Source: the human T2T-CHM13v2.0 reference genome, Homo sapiens
Strand: one strand, 5' to 3'
DNA length: 64,000 bases
NCBI RefSeq assembly: GCF_009914755.1
Contig: NC_060928.1
The position numbers and the translations under genes were made by a program. The notes below the pieces were generated by a model, which was not told the DNA's origin, searched no databases, and saw nothing but the letters and a program-made list of their open reading frames with translations. Positions 27,871 to 62,569 of this stretch are shown here, piece after piece (position 1 is the first letter of the stretch; every line of letters begins with the position of its first letter).

Positions 27871-28166
27871 TTTTTTATTTTTTATTTTTGAGATGGAGTC
27901 TCTCTCGTCACCCAGTCTGTAGTGCAATGGCACTATCAGCTCACTGCAACCTCTGCCTCCCGTGTTCAAGAGATTTTCCTGCCTCAGACTGCAGAGTAGC
28001 TGGGATTACAGGCACCTGCCACCACACCTGGCTAATTTTTGTATTTTTAGTAGAGAAGGGGTTGCACAACATTGGCCAGGCTGGTCTTGAACTCCTGATC
28101 TCATGATTCACCTGCCTTGGCCTCCCAAAATGCTGGGATTACAGGCATGAGACACTGCCCCTGGCC
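27871..28166 (-). mobile_element. Full-length AluS inserted in an L2 fragment
   Basis: Alu dimer; TSD tacca(a)ttttt at 27865 and 28167. Confidence 0.95.
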
Positions 28167-29142
28167 TACCATTTTTACCTTCACATTTGAAATCATACCC
28201 TCTCTGTTTTAGTCTTATTTCCCTGGATACTGATTCTCTTTCTTCCTAAGTGCTGTCCTCTCTCTGCCCACCTCACAGGGTCCAGCACACCCTCTTTCTT
28301 CTTGTTTTAAACCCTCTCCTTTTGGTGTGTTCCTGTGACTTTAGTCAACATTCATGTTCTGATGACTTTCAAAATCTCTTGTTCCATTTGAGATCTATTT
28401 TCTGAGCTCCAAGCACTTATTTAAACATTCATGTAGAAAAAGATGAGCATTTGCACCTGAAACTCAACCTTTCTAAATTGAGATAAGGTTTTCACTCAAG
28501 GAAATTTCTTAATATTCCTATATTTTTGTCTTAGTAAATGAGATGATTTACCTCTCATTTTTAAGGCAAGCAATTTGGAAGTCATCTTAGATAACTCTTT
28601 CTTACTATATAAAATGTACACTTTTAAAATAAATGAATAAAAGAATAAAATGAACACTTTTTAAAGCTGTCTACTTCTCTCCCTCTCCATTGCTACTTTT
28701 CTACTCCATACATCATTGTCTTTTTCATGGATTATTAAAATACTCTTTGTTATCACAGAAGCCAGGCTAATTCTCTTTCATGTACAGAGATGTAGAATAA
28801 TTTGTGGCAGACATCTGGTAAATATTCTAATCATTCACCCTTAAAATATCTCTGTTTGTGTTATCTAACAAATCCCCATATATTATTATTCTGCTTTAGA
28901 TTTGATTTAGGTTTTTATTTATATATAGCTTAAATTTAGTTTGTTTTTTAGAATTAGAATATATTTTATTAGATATTAACTCTAATTAAGATTTAGATTA
29001 CATGTAGTGTCAGATATAGATTTCATATTGCTTTTTCTAATTACTGCTAATAGGAAGGTTGAAAATCTTCTTAAATATTTATTTGTTTGTGTATCTACTT
29101 CTGATAAATGCCTGTTTAAATTCTTTCTCCAAGTATCTATTG

Positions 29143-29439
29143 CCAAGGTTCTCAAAATTTTGGTCTCAAGATCCTTAACACTTAAATAAATTTTGAGAAT
29201 TCTGAAGCACTTTTGTTTATGCTAGTACTATATACCAATATATATGCCAAATAAGATATTTTAAAAAGAAAATATTTAAATTCATTTAAGAGTACAAGAA
29301 TATTTTCATAAAAATATTTTTTAAATATAAAATGAATGAGAAGAGTGGCATTGCTTTACATTTTTGAAAATCACTATAAGTTTGACAATGGAATACAGCT
29401 AGAAAAATTTTATATTTGCTTCCATATTTAGTCTGTTGC
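29143..29439 (-). mobile_element. Charlie1a hAT transposon, 3' end
   Basis: ggttctcaaaattttggtctcaagatcc...cttttgtttatg...tgagaagagtggcattgctttacatttttg matches the reverse complement of the Charlie1a 3' terminus. Confidence 0.8.
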
Positions 29440-31505
29440 TATATTAGTTTATTTTCACACTGCTAATAAGACATAACTGAGACTGGGCAATTTACAAAAA
29501 AAAAGAGGTTTAATTGGACTCACAATTCCACATGGCTGGGGAGGCCTCACAATTATGGCAGAAAGCAAAGAGGAGCAAGTCACATCTTACATGGATGGCA
29601 GCAGGAAAAATAGAGAGCTTGTGCAGGGCAATTCCCATTTTTAAAACCATCAGGTCTTGTGAGGCCCATTCACTATCAGGAGAACATCATGGGAAAGACC
29701 AGCTCCCATTATTCAATCATCTCCCATCAGGTCCTTCCCACAACATGTGGGAATTATGGGAGCTACAAGATGAGATTTGGGTGGGGACACAGCCAAACCA
29801 TATTATTACACCTCTGGCCCCTCCCAAATCTCATATCGTCATGCTTCAAAACCAACTGTGCCTTCTCAACAGTCCCCCAAAGTCTCAACTCATTTCAGCA
29901 TTAATTCAAAAGTCCATAGTCCAAAGTCTCATCCAAGACAAGGCAAATCTCTTACACCTATGAGCCTGTAAAATCAAAAGCAAGTTAGTTACATCCTAGA
30001 TACAATGGGGGTACAGGCATTTGGTAAATACTGCCATTCCACATGGGAGAAATTGGCCAAAACAAAGGGGCTACGGCTCCCATGCAAGTCCAAAATCCAG
30101 CAGGGCAGTCAAATCTGAAAGCTCCAAAATGATCTCTTTTGACTCCATGTCTCGCATCAAGGTAATGCTGATGCAAGAATTGGGTTCCCAAAGTCTAGAA
30201 CAGCTCCACCCCTATGGCTCTGCACTGTACAGCCTCCCTCCCAGCTGCTTTCATGGGGTAGTGTTGAGTTTCTGCAGCTTTTCCAGGCATGTGGTGCAAG
30301 CTGTCAGTGGATCTCCTTTTCTAGGCTCTGGAGGATGGTGGTCCTCTTCTCACAGCTCCACTAGGCAGTGCCCCAGTATGGACTCTGTGTGAGGGCCCCA
30401 ATTCTACATTTTCCTTCTGTACTGCCATAGCAGATGTTCCCCATGAGGAAATCACCCCTACTGCAAACTTCTGCCCGGGCTTCCAGGCATTTCTATACAT
30501 CTTCTAAAGTCTAGGCAAAGGTTCCCAAACCTCAAATCTTGAATTCTGTGCACTCTCAGTCTCAACAGCACATGGAAGCTGCCAAGGCTTAAGGTTTGCA
30601 CCCTGTGAAGCCATGGCCCAAGGTCTACACTGGCCCCTTTCAGACAAGGCTGGAACAACTGGGATGAAGGACACCAAGTCTCTAGGTTGCACTCAGCATG
30701 GAGAACCTTGGCTTGGCCCATGAAACCACTTTTTTCTCCTCGACCTCCAGGCCTGTGATGGGAGGGGCTGCCACCAAAGTCTCTGACATTCCCTGGAGAC
30801 GTTTTCTTTACTGTCTTGGGGATTAAGATTTGGCTCGTCATTACTGATGCAAATTTCTGTCGCCAGCTTGAGTTTCTTTTCAGAAAGCGAGGTTTTCTTT
30901 CCTATTGCACCATCATGCTGCAAATTTTCTGAACTTTTATGCTCTGTTTCCCTTTTAAAACAGAATGCCTTTGAAAGCACCAAGTCACCTCTTGAATTCT
31001 TTGCTGCTTAGAAATTTCTTCCACCAGATATCCTCAATCATCTCTCTCAAGTTAAAAGTTCCACAAGTCTCTAGGGCAGAAGCAAAATGCTGCCAGTCTT
31101 TTTGCTAAAACATAACAAGAGTCACCTTTCATCCAGTTCCCAGTGAGTTCCTCCTTTCCACCTGAGACCACCTCAGCTTGGAATTTATTGTCCATATAGC
31201 TATCAGCATTTTAGGCAAAGCCATTCAACAAGTTCCTAGGAAGTTCTAAACTTTCCCACATTTTCCTGTCTTCTTCTGAGCCCTCCAAACTCTTCCAATT
31301 TCTACATGTTACCCAGTTCCAAAGTAGTTTCCACATTTTTGGGTATCTTTTCAGCAATGCCCCACTCTACTGGTACCAATTTACTTTATTAGTCTTTTCA
31401 TGCTGCTGATAAATATATACCTAAGACTGGGTAATTTACAAGAGAAAGGGGTTTAATTGGACTCAGTGTTCCACATGGCTGAGGAGGCCTTGCAATCATG
31501 GTGGA
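29440..31505 (-). mobile_element. THE1 (THE1B-like) MaLR: 3'LTR 29440-29805, internal 29806-31384, 5'LTR truncated at 31505
   Basis: Antisense LTR-int-LTR. The right LTR stops abruptly after about 120 bp at caatcatggtgga. Confidence 0.96.
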
Positions 31506-31559
31506 CCATTGTCAGACTCTCAGTTAATCTTTCCTAGATGTAGACAAGGAAAGGCCTTG

Positions 31560-32489
31560 TCCACTTCCCACCCACCCACCCAGGGCTGGAATGTATTATA
31601 TATTTAAATATATTTCTTGGTTTATTCACTAGAACTGACTATAGGTTTCTTGGTCTAGAATTCTAACAATATTCAGCATTCTTTTACTAAGTACCTTCTG
31701 CCATTAATATACTATTAATACAAGCCAAAACATTGAGGACCTATAGGAATAAAAAGGAGAAAAGCAGATCATCTATTAAGGTTTCTTAAAATAAGAAATT
31801 AGAAGTGTATATAAATACATATATTAATGATAGTGTAGATGGTTGAGGATACTTGTTTCTGATGTCTTTTTATCTCTTTCATCAATTGTCATCATTCTCT
31901 TCTTTAAATTTTCTAAAATAATGTTCTTAAATTTCTCAATATTTAACATTTTATACATTCATGGAGTTAATTGCAAGAGAAAGATAGTGTCATATTGTGA
32001 TTAATCATAAAAAAAGTATATTTGGTCTTTGTACAGTTTCCTGGCACACAACTCCTAAAACTCTTGTGATAAGCATCTTTGTGTATGCTAATAAATGTGC
32101 GTTTCTGGATAGCCTCAGGATGAGGACTCATTGCCAGGGGAACCAGCCATATGATCAGAGGGTTGGAATTTCAGGCCCAGCCTCTGACCTCTAGGGAAGA
32201 GAGAAGGACAAGGAGCTAGAGGTTGTGTTAATCCCCAATGTCCAATAATTTAATCAATCACCACTATATAATAAAGTCTCCATAAAAAGCCAAAAGGACA
32301 GGGTTCAGAGTGATTCTGGGTTGGTGAACATATGAAGGTGCTAGGAGCATTGTTCTTGCATAATGTGTGGAAGCTCTTTGCCTCTTCTTTCCTTTTTTTG
32401 CTCTATGCATCACTTCCATCTGACTGTCCCTCAGTTTCATGTGTTTATAATAAACTAGTGATCTTGTAAGTAAAGTGTTTTCCTGAATT
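31560..32489 (+). repeat. Inverted repeat arm A (930 bp)
   Basis: Reverse complement of 34696-35628, aligned by eye end to end. ORFs 31997+ and 34939- give near-identical peptides. Confidence 0.98.
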
Positions 32490-32862
32490 TTATGAGCTAT
32501 TCTGGCAAACGATCAAACCCAAGTTGGTATTTGTGAAAACCTCCAATTTATAGTTGCTCAGTCTTAAGCATGGGTGACAACCTGAACTTGGGAATGGTAT
32601 TTGCAGTGGGATGGGGCAGCAGTTCTGTGGAACTGAGTCCTTAGCCTATGGGACCTACCATTATCTAACAATGAATAGTATCTGAATTAAGTTTAATCAA
32701 AGGACACTCAGGTGACATCTGTGGAAAATTGGAGAACTGAGTTGTGGGAAAGATACCCATACAGCGGAGAGATACCCATGACACTCAGAGACGTGTCATG
32801 GAAGTATTGGATGTATAATAAGAAAAACAGAGTTTTTTTTTTTTTTTTCTTTAGTTGGTGTC
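31988..32862 (+). mobile_element. MER21-type LTR (MER21B/C-like)
   Basis: tgtcatattgtga...tatatttggtcttt...tttcctggcacacaactcctaaaa start. It continues across the inner end of arm A to ttggtgtcag. Confidence 0.8.
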
Positions 32863-32921
32863 AGTTTAAGTAAAAGCAGTTATTTTTTTGGTTACTTTTA
32901 AAAATAAAATTGCAGATGGTC

Positions 32922-33543
32922 CAATAGTTCTCCATGTGTGTGGTCCAAAAGGTCTAAACTATTGTCATAATAATAGTAAAACTCATTTTATTTTTCACTC
33001 TGTGATAGTTGCACTGATGGTACAAAGGCAATGGTGAGTAAAGCTGCTGGTGTTTTATTACGGTAGCATTCCACTGTACAAGTGTTTATTTTAGTCTTTG
33101 CTGCCACAAATGCACAGAAAATATAGTGCTATTTTCACTTAAAAGTGTTCTTGAAGAAAAAAATTACTAAATATCAACCCCTGAGTACGTGACTTTGTAA
33201 AATAGTCTCTGTGAGAAAATGGTAAAAACAACAACCAAAAACCCCACAACTTTTCTACTGCCTACCAATCAATAATTTTTACACTATCTCTCAGAAAACC
33301 ACTTAAGTACATGCTTCAGTTGTGAGTCACATTAGCTTTTTCAATGTAACAACATATTTAATGAAACTGATTAACAGATAAACACTGGCTATTTACAATT
33401 CGATTATTTGGCAGACGTTTTCTTGAAAATAAACAAGGAAAACCTTTCATGATGAGAAAAATGGCTGACATTATTATTGCCAATTAAAAATTCAAGTGTG
33501 TAAGCAAAAATTATAAGATCGTAAAACCTGTATCTGCCCCTCA
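32922..33543 (+). mobile_element. Charlie1a hAT transposon, 5' part (short pieces resume at ~34132-34187 and ~34658-34695)
   Basis: tgtggtcc...aaactattgtcataataat...ttgcactgatggtacaaaggcaatggtgagtaaagctgctgg matches the Charlie1a 5' end. Confidence 0.8.
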
Positions 33544-34131
33544 TGTATTAGTCAGGGCTCTCCAGAGGGAGAGAACCAATAGAATATATGTGTACATATA
33601 TATATATATAAAATGAATTTATTAAGGAGAATTGGCTCACATGATCACTAGGTGAAGTCCCACAGTAGTTGGTCTGCAAACTAGGAAAAAGAGAAGCCAG
33701 TAATGGCTCAGTCTGAGTCTGAAAGGTTGAAAACCAGGGAAGCCAGCAGTGCAGCCTTCAGTCTGTAGTTAAAGGCCTGAGATCCCCTGACAAACCACTG
33801 GTGTAAGTCTCAAAACCCAAAGGCTGAAGAATCTGGAGTCTGATGTCCAGGGGCAAAATAAGCAGAAAGAAACAAACAGCACAGAAAAAGGAGGAAGTCA
33901 GAAGGCCCCACAAGCAAAGTTATCCCTCTATCGTCCACCTGCTTTTTTCTAGGCATGCTGGCATGGATGGTGCCCACCCACGTTGAAGGCGGTCTTCCTT
34001 TCCCACTCCACTGACTCAAACGTCAGTCTTCTCTGGCAATACCCTCATAGACACACCCATAAACAATACTTTACCAGCCACCTAGACATCATTCAACCCA
34101 ATCAAATTGACATCTAATATTAACCATCACA
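33544..34131 (-). mobile_element. MLT2 solo LTR (HERV-L; MLT2A2-like)
   Basis: tgtattagtcagggctctccagagg...(TA)n...caaattgacatctaatattaaccatcaca. Confidence 0.92.
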
Positions 34132-34187
34132 CACCATATGCTTCATACTTTTTCAACATATAAAGAGTTTACTGATAAGTTTGGTCA

Positions 34188-34657
34188 TGAGAAGAAAATA
34201 GGTTTTAATTTGAAGTATGCAAATTCCTTTAAATATCAGATCCAGGGAGGCATTTAAAATGTGACAGCACTCATGCATCACTCCCACCTTGAGCTAAGTA
34301 ATTACTTCTTGAAGACACTTGCTATATGAGTGTATATTAGATTAACAGATGCCAAGTAACCATAAAATGCCATGTATGCTGGACATCATAACTCATATCC
34401 TATAGTTTAAAAATACATAGCCAATCATTAATCAATGTTATCTCTACAAACCAATGAGAATTCCTGTCAAACAACCTTGTATCAGCCCACTCCTGGTTTC
34501 CTTTTGCCTGTAAAAACCAGCTTGTAACAAAGGCTGAATGGAGAACTCCCCCAGGCAACATGGAAATGTGTCCTTTCTGGGCAGCTGTTCTCATTTTGGC
34601 TGATGTAAACACTTTAAAATTATATTTTCTGCCTCAACTTCTTCCATTAGGTCAACA
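34188..34657 (+). mobile_element. Solo LTR (LTR47-like)
   Basis: TG...CA ends (tgagaagaaaa / taggtcaaca); cctttaaatatcag, ttgagctaagtaattac, CCAAT boxes. Confidence 0.7.
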
Positions 34658-34695
34658 TTTCTAGTAGGAATAGATATGATTACTTCATGTTATAT

Positions 34696-35628
34696 AATTC
34701 AGGAAAACACTTTAGTTACAAGATCACTAATTTATTATAAACACATGAAACTGAGGGACAGTCAGAAGCAAGTGATGCATAGGGCAAAAAACTGAAAGAA
34801 GAGGCAAAGAGCTTCCACATATTATCCAAGAACAGTGTTCTCCCGGCACCTTCATAAGTTCACCAACCCAGAATCACTCTGAACCCTGTCCTTTTGGCTT
34901 TTTATGGAGACTTTATTATATAGTGGTGATTGATTAAATTATTGGACATTGGGGATTAACACAACCTCTAGCTCCTTGTCCTTCTCTCTTCCCTGGAGGT
35001 CAGAGGCTGGGCCTGAAATTCCAACCCTCTGATCATATGGCTGGTTCCCCTGGCAATGAGTCCTCATCCTGAGGCTATCCAGAAACGCACATTCATTAGC
35101 ATTCACAAAGATGCTTATCACAAGAGTTTTAGGAGTTGTGTGCCAGGAAACTGTACAAAGACCAAATATACCTTTTTTTATGATTAATCACAATATGACA
35201 CTATCTTTCTCTTGCAATTAACTCCATGAATGTATAAAATGTTAAATATTGAGAAATTTAAGAACATTATTTTAGAAAATTTAAAGAAGAGAATGATGAC
35301 AATTGATGAAAGAGATAAAAAGACATCAGAAACAAGTATCCTCAACCATCTATACTATCATTAATATATGTATTTATATACACTTCTATTTTCTTATTTT
35401 AAGAAACCTTAATAGATGATCTGCTTTTCTCCTTTTTAATCCTATAGGTCCTCAATGTTTTGGCTTGTATTAATAGTGTATTAATGGCAGAAGGTACTTA
35501 GTAAAAGAATGCTGAATATTGTTAGAATTCTAGACCAAGAAACCTATAGTCAGTTCTAGTGAATAAACCAAGAAATATATTTAAATATATAATACATTCC
35601 AGCCCTGGGTGGGTGGGTGGGAAGTGGA
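34696..35628 (-). repeat. Inverted repeat arm B (933 bp), including a 5' MER21 copy cut at 34696
   Basis: Reverse complement of 31560-32489. Confidence 0.98.
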
Positions 35629-35780
35629 GAGCAGGAGTTGATATGAGTTAAACCATAACATATTGTTAACAAACTTACAGAAGATAGTGCCAAGCATAGT
35701 GGGGGAGTTTGCCTGTTAAGACAAATAATAAAAATAACTCTTTATCTGTACTAGATAAGCATAAATAAAAATGATGCAAA

Positions 35781-36117
35781 TGCACGAAATAAAAGTATTT
35801 CACCCAAAATATACCTCTTTAACATTTTGAGATGAGTGTTCAGAGAGCCAGCAAACAGAAGTACCCCTGCAAAGCTGTCTTTTGTGGGGGAGATTTGCAT
35901 CTATAGAGAAAATCTGCATTGATGCAGTCAGGCTTTCTCCCAGGCCTTTCCTTGTCTGCATCTAGGAAAGATTAACTGAGAGTCTGACAACTTTAAAGGT
36001 CTGAAAGAAATGCTTACCCTCTATTCTCTCTGAGAGCTGTTACCTATGAGATTTTATCTACACAACAGGCCACCTTTCCTTGTCAAGCCTATTCCTTTCC
36101 CCCTCCTGTTTTGTCAC
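35781..36117 (+). mobile_element. ERV1 MER4-group LTR, 5' half (LTR49-like)
   Basis: tatttcacccaaaatatac...ccctgcaaagctgtcttttgtgggggagatttgcatct. Confidence 0.75.
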
Positions 36118-36589
36118 TGCAAAACAAAAAGTATCTGAGACAGCTCTCAATCAATTTATAGGTTTATTTTGCCAAGGTTAAGGATCATGGCCTATGACAC
36201 AGGCTCAGAAGATCCTAAGACTATGTGCCTAAGATGGTTGGGTTGCAGCTTGGTTTTATACATTTTAGAGAGAAAGAAGCTAAGGCAAAAATATAAATTA
36301 GTACATGTAAGGTATACATTGGTTAGGACCAGAAAATGGAATATCTTGGAACAGGGGGCTTCCTTGTTATAGGTAAATTCAAAGATTTGCTGATTGGCAA
36401 TTGGTTGAAAGAGTTAAGCTCTGCATGAAGAGTTAAAGTCAGCTTGAGTTAATATAAGAGGGGCTATGGAAGCCATGGCTCTTGTGATGTAGATGGAGCC
36501 TTCAGGTAGCAAGTTTCAGAGAGAATAGATGGTAAATGTCTGTTATTGGGCCTTAAAAGCGTCAGTCTCTCCAGAAAAGATCTAGTAAG
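36118..36589 (-). mobile_element. MER4 (D/E-like) LTR, left piece
   Basis: aaaaagtatctgagacagctctcaatcaattt...tttattttgccaaggttaagga is the antisense MER4 3' end. Confidence 0.88.
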
Positions 36590-39500
36590 TGAGAACATCA
36601 GAGGAATCCAAATGCCTAGGCAGATAGGGGAGGGTCCATGGTGAAATCCCACCTTCAAGCCAAAAACAGCCTGAAGGCTAAAAGTCCAGACTGCTGGTAC
36701 CAGATGAAATCCACTACCCACAGTGAAAACTTCTGTTCCTGTTTGCCTGCCCTTTCTTAATTGATTCTTTCTCAATAATGCCTTTTAACCAATCAAATGT
36801 TGCCTTTGTCAATACTACCTATGGCCTGCCCCTCCCCTATTCTGAGCCCTGGACCCAGCTACGTGAGGAGGAGAGAACCACCCAACTGCAGGGGCCCACA
36901 CCCTGCATCCCCCTCTCCACTGAGATCTTATTGTCTGCTCTCCTTACTCTTCAATGTTCAGTATATTCTTATCCTTCTTGGGCATAGCACAAGAGCTCAG
37001 GAACTGCTGAACGTGGGTACAAGATATAAGACAGGCAAGTGAGGGCATGCCAGTGTGGCTGAGTGGGACCTCGGCAGGGCATCACCAACTGGAGATCCCC
37101 AGCTTGCAAAGTCACCGAAAAGAAAATCTTGCATCATTTTGCCGGCTCCTGTGGGATACCTGAAGGGTGAGCGAATGCAGACCTAAAATCTTCACTTATT
37201 TCCGAGGCTTCTTGTCCTCAGACATTTTTCTGAAGGCAGATGAAGCACTGGACCTCTGATTAGCTAGTTAAGAGCAATGGCACAGCTACAGTCCTTTGGA
37301 CCCCACCTCCCCATCTCTCTCGGGGGCTGGGAATGTCGACCTCCTTCCAATCCAGTTTTTTCTATGGCATTTTTTCTTCCTTTTTTTCAGGGCTGTCATG
37401 GCCCTTATCCCTTCTTTTACAATGTTAGGAGTGTTGTTGCCAACTACAGAGATATTACTGGGTGAAATGAACATTCATCCCAGCCATCAGATATGCAATT
37501 CAGAACAATGTGGTTTCTGTCTATTCTTAGAGGCAAAGAGGAAGCAGAGATTAAAAGTTTCTCTCTCAGTTGGAGGAACCCAGTTGCATAGAGCAAGAGG
37601 CTTTTTCTTTCAGGCACCTTCACCACCCTGCACTTAAGCTGGCTTTTTATTGTCTTTTCTCCACCATGTCAAGAGTTAACACTGCCCTATGAATACAGGG
37701 AGCTTTTCTATGCAAAAGGTGTTTTCTGTTTGTTTGTTAATTTTTATTGATTTCTATTTATTTATTTACTTATTTAACCTTTTGAAAGGCATATTACTAG
37801 GCCAGGACCCCAATTCTCCCTTCCCCTTGTTTGAGGAGGATCCAGTTCCACAGCTTTATCTTAGCATTGGACTTAATGATAAGGAAGAAGTGAAGGAGCA
37901 GCCCCGCCAGCTGCTGGCTGCAGTCTGGTGAGGGACACCTGACATTTAATTTAATGAGTCCATAAACCCTCCTGAAGCACCTTCTTGCCCCAAACTTAAT
38001 TCCAAGCTTCAGGTTGAAGTCCTAGAAAGGGAAACTAGATCTGAGGGATCCAAAGGCAGGCACAATGGAAGTCAAGGGGCACTGCACAGGTGAGCATGAC
38101 TAATTTCTGCTGATTAGTCCCCCTGCCCTGACATTTTATGAGTAGATGTCATGCTAGCATCCATGGCATAGATGAGGTTACTGACAGCAGGGAGCATAGG
38201 CCAGCACATAGGTGTGTGTGAATATTTTCTACCCTCTATGCCTCCCCATTAACATGGGTGAAACCCAAGCCAGATTGTCACCCATGGGCTGTACCTTGCT
38301 GAGGTTGCTGGGACCTGGGCCTATAAAGACAGAAAAAAGAAAGGGATTGCCTTATCTTTTTCTTCCTCATGTACCTCGGGTATTTACTGGGAGGAAAAAA
38401 GAACTAGGAGATGGCTTTTTCCCCTCTTTCTGGATGGGTAATTGGCCATCTTCTATCTGTACTTCTCTTGCATATATCCTGAATCACTGGAACCCTTTGG
38501 AAATCAAATCAAAACAAAACAAAACAAAACAAAAACACCTACTTTTTTATTTTCCTCCTATGTCTTATCTTCGTAGATGGATAATTGTGTCCCAGTACCA
38601 CAGGACACTACCCTCAGAAGCATCCCTCAAACTGGGAAATTTAATTTTCCCACACCTTAAACTCTGGCTTAAAATGTACTGGGAAGAAATTACAGATCTA
38701 ACTGAGAAAATTTCTTGAGGGCAGACAACTTTTACAGTATGAAAAAAACCTCTTTCTCTGCTTCCTTTTCACAGGACTCCAGGGTAGATAAGACTCCATA
38801 TCTCGGGACAAGGGAACCCAGAAGCCTGACATGCTGGAAAAGGTTAAAAGTTTTTTGTTGTTGTTGTTTTGTTTTGTTTTTGTTTTTGTTTTACCAGACT
38901 TCTGAACTCTCTCTCTCCCTATGCAAACTAGTAAAAGGAATGGTAATGATGACTATTTATATCCTCTCTAAAGTTTCGATTAATGGAATAAAGGATTTGT
39001 GAGGCTAGTCTTAAGCTGTAGTGGATCTGTTGTACTTTTTGCTAATATTTGTCTTTCTGTATCTTTCTATCAAAAAGATCATTCCCTCAGGATAGAATGT
39101 GGGCTTAGGACCCCATAAGCCCACTGTTCAAGCCAGATCAGCAAACCGTCAGTAACAAACTTTGCTACAAATCTCCATCTTGTTTTACATTCTTGGGAGT
39201 TTGACCTTGTAACCATGTGGCAATACTTTCTTTTGGTTTCTGCCATTTTACAATGATGGCCCAGGTTCAATCCTGGCTTAGGGAATGAGTACATCCTGGT
39301 TAATATCTGTGTGACTTTTGCCATTTGCTCATTCTCTTCCCCTCCGTGAACAACTTCTAGATTCCTTTCTTAAATCTTCCTTTCTCTGGGCTACATTTAA
39401 AGTTTCTAGATTTTGTAAAAACTGCTTACCACCTCTTTGAAAATAGCTTGTACACTGGCAGTTAAGTAATAACCTTAGTTGAGGTTTGTTGATTTCACCT

Positions 39501-60940: not shown

Positions 60941-62569
60941 AGAAGATATAACAACTGAGACCTAAGAAATACAAATACTCATTAGAGACTATTATTAACA
61001 ACTATATGCCAACAAATTGGAAAACCTAGAAGAAATGGATAAATTCCTGGATACCTACAACCTATGAGACTGAACCATGAAGAAACAGAAAACCTTAGGA
61101 AATCAGTAACAAGTAATGTGATTAAAGCTGTAATTCAAACTCTCCAAAGGAAACCTAGGACTTGATCGATTGACAGCTGAATTCTACTAAACTTTTAATG
61201 AAAAGCTGATGCTAGTCCTACTCAAAATATTCAAAAAAATGTAGGAAGAGGGAATACTTCCAAACTCATTCCATAAGGCCAGCATAACCCTGATACCAAA
61301 ACCAGACAAGGAAACAACAACAATGAAAACAATAATAAAACTACAGGGCAATATCACTGATGCAAAAATCCTCAACAAAATATTAACAAACAGAATACAA
61401 CAAAACATTAACAATATCATTCATCACGATTAACTGGGATTCATCCTGAGGATGCAAGGATGGTTCAACATCCTTAATAAATGCAAAACACTACATCAAT
61501 AAATGCAAAACATTACATTAACAGAATCAACAATAAAAATTATATAATTCTTTCAATAGATGCTGAAGAAGCATTTGATAAAAACATCCCTTTATGATAA
61601 AAATGCTCATCAAAATGGGTATAGAAGGAAAATGCCTCAGAATAATGAAGATCATTTATAAAATACAACTATCATACTGAATGGGGATAACTCAAATGCC
61701 TTTCTTTTAAATACTAGAATAAGACAAGGATGCACACTTTCACTATTATTCACCATAATACTGGAAGTCTTGGCTAAAGAAATTAGGCAAGACAAAGACA
61801 TAAAGGGCATCCAAATTGGAAACGAAGAAGTCAAATTAGCCTGGTACACAGAGAGTGTTATCTTTATAGATAGAAAATCCTAAAGACTCCACCAAATTGA
61901 TAAATGAATTCAGCAAAGTTGCAAGAAACACAAGCAAGATATGGAAATCAGTAACACTTTTATATGCCAACAGCTAAAAATCTGAAAAAGAAATCAAGAA
62001 AGCAATCCCATTTACAATAGTTGCAAAAAGATGAAGTCCCTAGGAATAAATCTAACTAAAGAAATAAAATATCTATTCAAGGAAAACTATAAAACTATGA
62101 TAAAAGAAATTAAAGGAGACACAAAAAATATTCCATGCTCATAGATCAGAAGAATTAATATTTTTAAAATGGAAATATTACTGAAAGCAATTTATAGATT
62201 CAATGCAATCGTTTTCAAAATACCAATGACATTCTTTGCAGAAATATAAAACAAATCCTAAAATTTATATGGAACCACAAAAGATTCCAAATAGCCAAAT
62301 CAATCCTGAACAAAAAGGACAAAGTTTGAGGCATCACACTACCCGATTACAAAATTTATTACAAAGATATAGTAACCAGAATAGCATGGTACTGGCATCA
62401 AAATAGACACATAGGCCACTGAAACAGAATAGAGAACATAGATATAAATCCACACATTTATCACAGACTCATTTTCAAGAAAGGTGCTAAGAACTTGCAA
62501 TGGAGAAAGGAGAGTTTTTTCAATGCTCATCCATATGCAGAAGAATGAAACTAAGTTCTTATCTTTCAC

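What the first reader, a model, noticed from the sequence alone, without database searches (positions are those of the whole stretch)
31560..35628. 930-bp inverted repeat pair flanking a 2.2-kb spacer: candidate recurrent or polymorphic inversion
Seen: 31560-32489 is the reverse complement of 34696-35628, and the match includes ~430 bp outside the MER21 LTR, so this is a local duplication and not two independent insertions. Established: near-identical inverted repeats mediate NAHR inversions of the spacer, often recurrently. Inference: 32490-34695 may exist in both orientations in populations.
Basis: partly seen in the sequence, partly recalled or inferred. Interest (0 to 1): 0.8.

Follow-up and report, generated by a model that had tools for sequence, protein, structure and literature searches.

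The report
Old inverted duplication, apparently fixed orientation
A roughly 1-kb stretch of human chromosome 4 is present twice in opposite orientation around a 2.2-kb spacer in a gene desert; it is a real old local duplication, but the human inversion catalogues I could read show no sign that the spacer flips between people.

Summary
The inverted repeat is real and larger than reported. The left arm is 31509-32493 (985 bp) and the right arm 34692-35990 (1,299 bp). They share 984 aligned bases with 23 mismatches (97.7%); a 311-313-bp stretch exists only in the right arm. The outer ~470 bp occur nowhere else in the T2T genome, and the inner ~500 bp belong to an old dispersed LTR family.

Each arm is continuous with undisturbed sequence on one side only. 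The old LTR runs through the left arm's inner edge (38 of 38 family hits). Another repeat runs through the right arm's outer edge (9 rows). This pattern fits an inversion that duplicated its own breakpoint. It also fits a larger inverted duplication later trimmed by deletions. The two cannot be separated without ape sequences.

Polymorphism is not supported. No inversion is listed here in T2T-based call sets of 44 genomes or 65 genomes. The longest perfectly identical tract between the arms is 180 bp, so the substrate for recombination is weak. No gene is annotated in the window (hub annotation). This is an ordinary feature of low interest.

The parts
29436..31505 (.). About 2.07-kb LTR-bounded retroelement (THE1/MaLR-like, a name from recall) forming the left outer flank. 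Its right LTR (31381-31505) is cut to 125 of ~370 bp exactly where the left arm begins.
   Evidence: 29485-31505 matches the in-window copy 25414-23379 (83%, 2039 bp), and 29436-29803 repeats at 31381-31501 and at 23506-23147; genome copies at 85-87% identity end at window 31490-31505 (most at 31501-31505); the sister copy continues past this point, so this copy is truncated.
31506..31508 (+). Three bases (CCA) of unassigned origin at junction J1, between the truncated LTR and the left arm.
   Evidence: junction print. Neither the flank family nor the right-arm parental sequence accounts for them.
31509..31557 (+). 49-nt outermost piece of the left arm, a copy of 35990-35942.
   Evidence: pair I4, 98%; row C4:62159942-62159990.
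31558..32493 (+). Main body of the left arm. 31558-31978 is locus-specific sequence and ~31979-32493 is the first part of an old LTR copy.
31979..32763 (+).
   Evidence: 38 of 38 family hits cross query position 244 (= 32493), ending at window 32509-32763. L004 aligns over 32004-32656.
32494..34691 (.). 2,198-bp spacer. It holds the LTR tail (to ~32763), mostly unique sequence with short ancient repeats (32764-33543), a dispersed repeat at 33544-34131, a ~470-bp dispersed repeat at ~34190-34660, and 30 bp of non-repeat sequence up to junction J3.
34692..35630 (-). Main body of the right arm. Its LTR part is truncated at the inner edge (junction J3, 34691|34692). The inner 145 bp carry 11 of the 23 mismatches.
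   Evidence: none of the six family copies aligns inward of 34690.
35631..35941 (-). 311-313-bp stretch present only in the right arm. Its outer ~155 bp (35786-35941) belong to a dispersed repeat.
   Evidence: hits cover query 158-311 at 82-87%.
35942..35990 (-). 49-nt outermost piece of the right arm.
35786..36106 (-). Dispersed repeat (80-85% identity to other copies) that runs unbroken through the right arm's outer edge at 35990. It is followed by a ~480-bp LTR-like repeat at 36108-36592.
   Evidence: 9 of 47 rows span query 383/443-709/725, crossing position 511 (= 35990)..

Best explanation
This is an old, locus-specific inverted duplication of about 1-1.3 kb, made by one repair- or replication-based rearrangement. 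It was not made by two TE insertions and it is not an assembly error.

Most likely (about 50%) the event inverted the 2.2-kb spacer and duplicated one breakpoint in the same step. This is the 'staggered-break' or template-switch kind of inversion. The predicted ancestral order is: left retroelement, then the spacer in the opposite orientation, then a single copy of the arm, then the right flank. After the event a second, inverted arm copy sat at the other end of the flipped spacer.

The event left two new junctions. J1/J2 lies at the left arm's outer end. There a truncated LTR is followed by 3 stray bases, a 49-nt templated piece and a 311-313-bp skip. J3 lies at the right arm's inner end and is followed by a cluster of transversion-rich substitutions.

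Today the structure behaves as a fixed, single-orientation feature of a gene desert. The arms have diverged to 97.7%, with no perfect tract above 180 bp, so recombination between them should now be rare.

Shown here: the repeat, its uniqueness in the genome, the one-sided continuity of each arm, the junction anatomy and the absence from the call sets I read. Inferred: the mechanism, the ancestral order and the age.
For: - **Repeat and uniqueness:**
- **Left arm continuous with the spacer:** 38 of 38 LTR-family hits cross 32493, while the right-arm hit stops there. The six family copies stop at or before 34690 in the right arm.
- **Right arm continuous with its outer flank:** 9 rows span 36106-35786 across 35990. 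The left arm keeps only 49 nt of that repeat and abuts a truncated retroelement LTR.
- **Complex outer junction of the left arm:** one search prints it.
- **Uneven divergence:** 11 of 145 mismatches next to J3 against 12 of 839 elsewhere (Fisher p = 1.4e-4), with 11 transitions to 12 transversions overall.
- **Direction of change:** polarised against six family copies, 12 of 20 differing columns in the LTR part are derived on the right arm, 4 on the left, and 4 are ties.
- **Precedents:** inverted duplications of non-repetitive sequence flank 17 of 29 Drosophila inversions and are ascribed to staggered breaks (PMC1885836, abstract). In humans, HsInv0260 is a 1,831-bp non-homologous inversion with a 980-bp duplication at one breakpoint (PMC6748972 SD1).
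- **No polymorphism seen:**
- **Age:** Jukes-Cantor distance is 1.4% without the cluster and 2.4% overall. Set against a human-chimpanzee divergence of ~1.2% (recalled), this suggests roughly 7-13 million years if there was no gene conversion.
Against: - The predicted ancestral joint (31505-31508 next to the reverse of 34691) cannot be confirmed. The missing ~245 bp of the truncated LTR is not at the spacer's right end nor anywhere in 28-40 kb, so sequence loss must be assumed.
- The same flank pattern arises if a longer inverted duplication was made first and the left arm later lost its outer part and the 311-313 bp.
- The 12-to-4 polarity is only weakly significant and rests on copies ~70% identical.
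- No ape or other human sequence could be examined here, so neither the ancestral order nor fixation is directly shown.
- The call sets read are filtered lists and could miss a rare allele. The HGSVC3 spreadsheet is flagged as cut when stored.
Confidence: 0.5

Rival explanations
1. A longer segment was copied in inverted orientation and inserted 2.2 kb to the right, with no inversion. The segment ran from inside the old LTR outward past 35990. The left, parental copy later lost its outer part, together with ~245 bp of the neighbouring retroelement LTR, and the 311-313 bp. These losses came as one complex deletion or two separate ones.
For: - The left arm is continuous with the spacer, as expected of a parent copy in place.
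- Most derived substitutions, and the cluster next to junction J3, lie on the right arm. This fits the right arm being the newly synthesised copy.
- The left arm's outer end is visibly scarred.
Against: - It needs one or two extra events.
- It needs a 49-nt island to survive between two deletions.
- No outer end of the supposed daughter copy can be identified. The repeats to the right (35786-36106, 36108-36592, 36601 onward) show no break that pairs with 34691.
Confidence: 0.3
2. A simple inverted duplication placed a daughter arm at the left. The spacer was later flipped by homologous recombination between the arms, an odd number of times in the lineage leading to CHM13. The locus may therefore still toggle.
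For: - It gives the same diagonal flank continuity as the best explanation.
- Inverted repeats of similar size do mediate human inversions. HsInv0072 has 1.45-kb repeats at 98.4% identity and is recurrent; HsInv0061 has 654-bp repeats at 99.7%.
- The low divergence of the outer 839 bp (1.4%) beside a 7.6% patch could reflect gene conversion between the arms.
Against: - It needs two events where one suffices.
- No second orientation is listed in 44 or 65 genomes.
- The longest perfect tract today is 180 bp. This is at or below the minimal homology usually quoted for mammalian recombination (a recalled figure).
Confidence: 0.12
3. Assembly artefact, or chance convergence of two independent insertions of the same LTR family.
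For: None found. The inner half of each arm does belong to a dispersed family.
Against: - About 470 bp of each arm is sequence found nowhere else in the genome.
- The two LTR parts are 92-98% alike, while other family members are 66-76% alike.
- The whole 4.5-kb structure, with 2.3% arm divergence, is shorter than the long reads used for this assembly (general knowledge).
- No inversion or misorientation is listed here when other genomes are compared with this assembly. Call sets for insertions and deletions were not examined.
Confidence: 0.02

Closest known systems
Inversions with inverted duplication of a breakpoint (staggered-break model, Ranz et al. 2007, PMC1885836; human HsInv0260 in PMC6748972 SD1)
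   Same: - Two inverted copies of largely non-repetitive sequence sit at the two ends of a segment.
- Each copy is continuous with original sequence on one side only.
- The size is comparable to HsInv0260, a 1,831-bp inversion with a 980-bp duplication.
   Different: - The ancestral, uninverted state has not been seen here.
- The junctions are more complex: a 49-nt templated piece, a 311-313-bp skip and the loss of at least 245 bp.
- HsInv0260 is polymorphic in humans, whereas this locus shows no second allele in the tables read.
Small NAHR-mediated polymorphic inversions of InvFEST (HsInv0061, HsInv0040, HsInv0072, HsInv0266)
   Same: - Inverted repeats of 0.65-1.9 kb, made of unique sequence plus TEs, flank 1.7-5 kb segments.
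- The architecture is the same as here: arms of 0.98 and 1.3 kb around a 2.2-kb spacer.
   Different: - Those repeats are 98.4-99.9% identical. These arms are 97.7% identical, with a 311-313-bp indel and no perfect tract above 180 bp.
- Those loci have both orientations genotyped in people. This one appears in none of the lists I could read.
Replicative template-switch rearrangements (FoSTeS/MMBIR) with error-prone synthesis near junctions
   Same: - Several closely spaced switches occur at one junction: 3 stray bases, 49 templated nt and a skip.
- A cluster of transversion-rich substitutions lies within ~350 bp of the other junction.
   Different: The mechanism is inferred from scars about 10 million years old. 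Ordinary divergence, gene conversion or later deletions could give the same picture. The attribution of such clusters to MMBIR is recalled, not taken from a paper read here.

Membership tests
Locus-specific inverted (segmental) duplication | The homology includes sequence that is not a dispersed repeat and occurs only at the two copies. | tested here: met
   arm positions 1-~470 match only C4:62155509-62156493 and C4:62158692-62159628, plus the 49-nt piece.
Locus-specific inverted (segmental) duplication | At least 1 kb long and at least 90% identical (the usual segmental-duplication threshold, recalled). | tested here: inconclusive
   Identity is 97.7%, which meets the threshold. There are 984 aligned bases; the left arm is 985 bp and the right arm 1,299 bp, so length sits right on the threshold.
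NAHR-mediated polymorphic inversion (InvFEST type) | Inverted repeats of high identity flank the segment. | tested here: met
NAHR-mediated polymorphic inversion (InvFEST type) | Both orientations are observed among individuals. | tested here: not met
   There is no entry at chr4:62.155-62.160 Mb (T2T) in PMC10150506 Table S1 (44 samples). PMC12350169 tables 37 and 38 (65 samples) also have none. The locus is not among the 45 inversions of PMC6748972. This was tested only through published tables, not through reads or assemblies.
NAHR-mediated polymorphic inversion (InvFEST type) | A tract of uninterrupted identity long enough for homologous exchange (about 200-300 bp or more, recalled). | tested here: inconclusive
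   The longest perfect tracts are 180, 150 and 137 bp.
Inversion with breakpoint duplication (staggered breaks or template switching) | Each repeat copy is continuous with ancestral sequence on one side only, in a diagonal pattern: one arm on its inner side, the other on its outer side. | tested here: met
   38 of 38 family hits cross 32493; none crosses 34690 inward; 9 rows cross 35990; the left outer flank is a different, truncated element.
Inversion with breakpoint duplication (staggered breaks or template switching) | An outgroup or ancestral allele has a single copy and the opposite orientation of the spacer. | not testable with these tools
   No primate or other human assemblies are available here. 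The supplement of the ape genome paper could not be read.
Two independent insertions of one TE family in opposite orientation | The homology is confined to the element, and divergence is typical of the family. | tested here: not met
   The homology extends ~470 bp beyond the element. The arms are 92-99% alike against 66-76% for other family copies.

The most novel reading that the evidence does not exclude
The locus is a micro-inversion that has toggled. The spacer was flipped by exchange between the arms at least once after the duplication. The low divergence of most of the arm, beside a 7.6% patch, is the trace of continuing gene conversion. The orientation would then differ among great apes, or at low frequency among humans, below the reach of the filtered call sets.
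Probability: 0.12. Interest if true: 0.4.

Novelty: new member of a known kind. Interest (0 to 1): 0.2.

Why it matters
It matters little for biology at this locus. There is no annotated gene or functional element in the window (hub annotation), and no variation has been detected.

Its value is as a worked example of two points:
- An inverted repeat pair need not be the cause of an inversion. It can be the product of one. The one-sided continuity of each arm with broken repeats is a test that can be run on a single genome.
- Arm length and average identity overstate recombination potential. Here the longest uninterrupted identity is only 180 bp.

If ape genomes showed the predicted ancestral order, this would add a dated human-lineage case of inversion with breakpoint duplication.

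Tried and rejected
- **Porubsky et al. 2022 (Cell):** not held by DOI or PMC id. I used the T2T remapping of the same data instead.
- **Ape genome paper (PMC12058530):** the only supplement held is a picture PDF, so nothing could be searched. No ape comparison was possible.
- **Aguado 2014 (PMC3961182) and main text of Giner-Delgado 2019:** no mention of chr4. Aguado's inversions are 5.1-226 kb.
- **Genome Research 2026 ultralong-read paper (PMC13629690):** no chr4 or 4q13 in the main text. Its supplements were not consulted.
- **Test of the predicted ancestral joint:** the continuation of the truncated left-flank LTR, taken from the in-window sister copy, was sought in four places: the reverse of the spacer's right end, the left arm, the spacer's left end and the right flank. 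Only chance-level 11-16-nt matches turned up. It is also absent from 28-40 kb. The test is uninformative, because sequence was lost at that joint.
- **Reading ancestral orientation from ancient repeats:** I looked for repeats split between the spacer and the flanks. 32700-33560 and 28150-29450 hold only ~100-200-bp ancient fragments, which cannot be joined.
- **The spacer's right end:** the repeat at ~34190-34660 ends about 30 bp short of junction J3, so it marks no breakpoint.
- **Chance and two-insertion explanations:** rejected.
- **Failed call:** one search failed on a term that was too long and was re-sent.
Full report
**1. The observation**

The inverted repeat exists. The repeat finder on 29000-38000 reports three abutting inverted pairs:
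- 31560-32016 / 35172-35628: 457 nt, 99%
- 32009-32347 / 34840-35178: 339 nt, 98%
- 32345-32493 / 34692-34840: 149 nt, 92%

It also reports a fourth pair further out, 31509-31557 / 35942-35990 (49 nt, 98%).

A gapped alignment joins these into one arm pair. The left arm is 31509-32493 (985 bp) and the right arm is 34692-35990 (1,299 bp, read on the minus strand). There are 984 aligned columns with 23 mismatches (97.66%), a 1-bp and a 2-bp indel, and a 311-313-bp stretch (35629/35631-35941) that only the right arm has. The spacer is 32494-34691 (2,198 bp).

**2. A local duplication, not two insertions**

I searched the left arm against the window's own assembly, which is the T2T genome and can be searched. 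Arm positions 1 to about 470 matched only the two arms. Positions from about 470 to 985 also matched 39 scored members of an old dispersed family at 68-76% identity (42 rows in all).

I had no repeat library and cannot confirm it.

An assembly artefact is very unlikely. The whole structure is 4.5 kb with diverged arms. No inversion or misorientation is listed at this place when other genomes are compared with this assembly.

**3. Anatomy of the flanks**

- **Left outer flank (29436-31505).** This is a ~2.07-kb retroelement bounded by direct ~370-bp LTRs. It has an inverted sister copy in the window at 25414-23147 and many genomic copies at 85-87% identity. From recall it looks like a THE1/MaLR element. 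Its right LTR is cut to 125 bp exactly at the arm (31381-31505). The sister copy continues past this point, so the cut is a break and not a natural end.
- **Junction J1/J2.** Three unassigned bases (31506-31508) follow. Then comes the 49-nt piece, and then the arm resumes 311-313 bp further along the right-arm template.
- **Left inner edge.** The old LTR runs straight through 32493. All 38 family hits cross that position and end between 32509 and 32763. The right-arm hit stops exactly there.
- **Right inner edge.** In the right arm the LTR ends at the junction. None of six family copies aligns inward of 34690. The next repeat in the spacer (~34190-34660) ends 30 bp short of the junction.
- **Right outer edge.** A different dispersed repeat runs unbroken through 35990. 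Nine rows span about 36106-35786, covering the outer flank, the 49-nt piece and the outer 155 bp of the right-arm-only stretch. An LTR-like repeat follows at 36108-36592.

**4. What the flank pattern means**

Each arm is continuous with undisturbed sequence on one side only, and the sides are diagonal. The left arm is continuous with the spacer. The right arm is continuous with the outer flank. The two new joints are the left arm's outer end (J1/J2) and the right arm's inner end (J3, 34691|34692).

A plain 'copy and paste in reverse' would leave one arm continuous on both sides and the other on neither. The diagonal pattern is what an inversion that duplicates one of its breakpoints leaves behind. 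With ancestral order X-M-b-W, the product is X-b'-M'-b-W.

There are precedents:
- Ranz et al. proposed this for Drosophila, where 17 of 29 fixed inversions carry inverted duplications of non-repetitive sequence, ascribed to staggered breaks (PMC1885836, abstract).
- In humans, Supplementary Data 1 of Giner-Delgado et al. lists HsInv0260, a 1,831-bp non-homologous inversion with a 980-bp duplication at one breakpoint (PMC6748972).
- A template-switching replication event would give the same product. It would also explain the stuttering at J1/J2: 3 bases, 49 nt, then a skip.

**5. Divergence between the arms**

- Mismatches are unevenly spread: 11 of 145 in the stretch next to J3 against 12 of 839 elsewhere (Fisher p = 1.4e-4).
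- Transitions and transversions are about equal (11 and 12), and several changes are adjacent pairs. This is unlike ordinary primate divergence. The usual excess of transitions is recalled, not tested here.
- I polarised the LTR part against six family copies. Of 20 differing columns, 12 have the left arm in the family state, 4 have the right arm in it, and 4 are ties. Most changes near J3 are therefore on the right arm.
- This would fit inaccurate repair synthesis next to a junction. It would equally fit a patch that escaped gene conversion. The outgroup copies are only ~70% identical, so the polarity is weak evidence.
- Jukes-Cantor distances are 1.4% without the cluster and 2.4% overall. 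Against a recalled human-chimpanzee divergence of about 1.2%, the event would be roughly 7-13 million years old if the arms never converted each other.

**6. The main rival origin**

The same picture arises if a longer segment was duplicated in reverse to the right and the left, parental copy later lost its outer part. That loss would include ~245 bp of the neighbouring LTR and the 311-313 bp.

This needs extra events and the survival of a 49-nt island. It does fit the excess of derived changes on the right arm.

I tried to decide between the two origins:
- The missing LTR piece is not next to the spacer's right end, nor anywhere in 28-40 kb.
- No repeat is split between 34691 and the right flank.
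- The spacer and left flank hold only short ancient repeat fragments that cannot be joined.

The question needs outgroup sequence, which these tools do not hold.

My odds are:

| Origin | Odds |
|---|---|
| Inversion with breakpoint duplication | about 0.5 |
| Trimmed longer duplication | about 0.3 |
| Duplication followed by a recombinational flip | about 0.12 |
| Other origins, including an assembly artefact or two independent insertions (about 0.02) | the rest |

**7. Is it polymorphic?**

I could only consult published tables.

- **Giner-Delgado et al. (45 validated inversions).** The chr4 entries lie only at hg18 39.9, 89.07 and 189.1 Mb (PMC6748972 SD1).
- **Aguado et al. 2014.** The main text has no chr4 case.
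- **Porubsky et al. 2023 (PMC10150506 Table S1).** This is the T2T-based call set, with 44 sample columns. It lists chr4 calls at 4.01, 33.07, 49.23, 49.60, 72.26, 72.70, 91.25, 160.25, 191.30 and 192.18 Mb. None is at 62.155-62.160 Mb. The same call showed 30 of 31 'chr4' occurrences, and no GRCh38 minor-allele or misorientation row near this locus.
- **HGSVC3 (PMC12350169).** The supplementary workbook holds CHM13-based and GRCh38-based PAV inversion tables for 65 samples. These include calls under 1 kb.
  - It had no number beginning 62155 to 62160 apart from an unrelated chr7 identifier.
  - It had no identifier beginning chr4-6215 or chr4-5881 to chr4-5884.
  - chr4 rows are present in those tables, at 33.07 and 191.30 Mb and at hg38 87.93 Mb.

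Caveats:
- These are filtered lists.
- The workbook is flagged as cut when stored.
- My hg38 position (about 58.82-58.83 Mb) is an estimate from one offset.
- The 2022 Cell call set and the ape genome supplements could not be read.

A common second orientation is thus unlikely. A rare one is not excluded.

**8. Recombination potential**

Known small inversion-mediating repeats in Giner-Delgado's table are:

| Inversion | Repeat size | Identity |
|---|---|---|
| HsInv0061 | 654 bp | 99.7% |
| HsInv0040 | 755 bp | 99.9% |
| HsInv0072 | 1.45 kb | 98.4% |
| HsInv0266 | 1.9 kb | 98.5% |

The present arms are within that size range but less alike. They are interrupted by a 311-313-bp indel. Their longest perfect tracts are 180, 150 and 137 bp. 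This is at or below the minimal homology usually quoted for mammalian homologous exchange, a figure I recall and did not check. The spacer of 2.2 kb is also far too long for the hairpin-type instability of close inverted repeats (recalled).

**9. Verdict**

The population half is unsupported.

The feature is an ordinary, old inverted duplication in a gene desert; no gene or functional element is annotated in the window (hub annotation). The one point of interest is that the repeats may be the scar of an ancient small inversion rather than a substrate for new ones. Interest is low.

Noticed in passing
window 29436-31505 and 25414-23147: Two ~2.1-2.3-kb LTR-bounded retroelements of one family (THE1/MaLR-like, from recall) lie in inverted orientation about 4 kb apart. 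They are 83% identical over 2,039 bp. This looks like two old independent insertions, too diverged to recombine.
   Followed up: partly
window 32342-32418 / 34767-34845: A tight patch of arm differences includes adjacent double changes (32342-32343, 32392-32393) and a near pair (32416, 32418), mostly transversions. It may be multi-nucleotide mutation from inaccurate repair synthesis, or a patch converted from a third LTR copy. I did not look for a donor copy.
   Followed up: partly
window 35786-36592: A ~480-bp LTR-like repeat (36108-36592) directly abuts a 321-bp repeat (35786-36106). In at least one other genomic copy the two lie ~730 bp apart (C2:186796057-186796348 and 186797076-186797399). 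This suggests an LTR plus the start of its internal region, with an internal deletion here.
   Followed up: no
window 28000-28167: A short, high-copy repeat matches at least five other places in the window at 72-84% identity. It is probably an Alu-type element and is unrelated to the finding.
   Followed up: no
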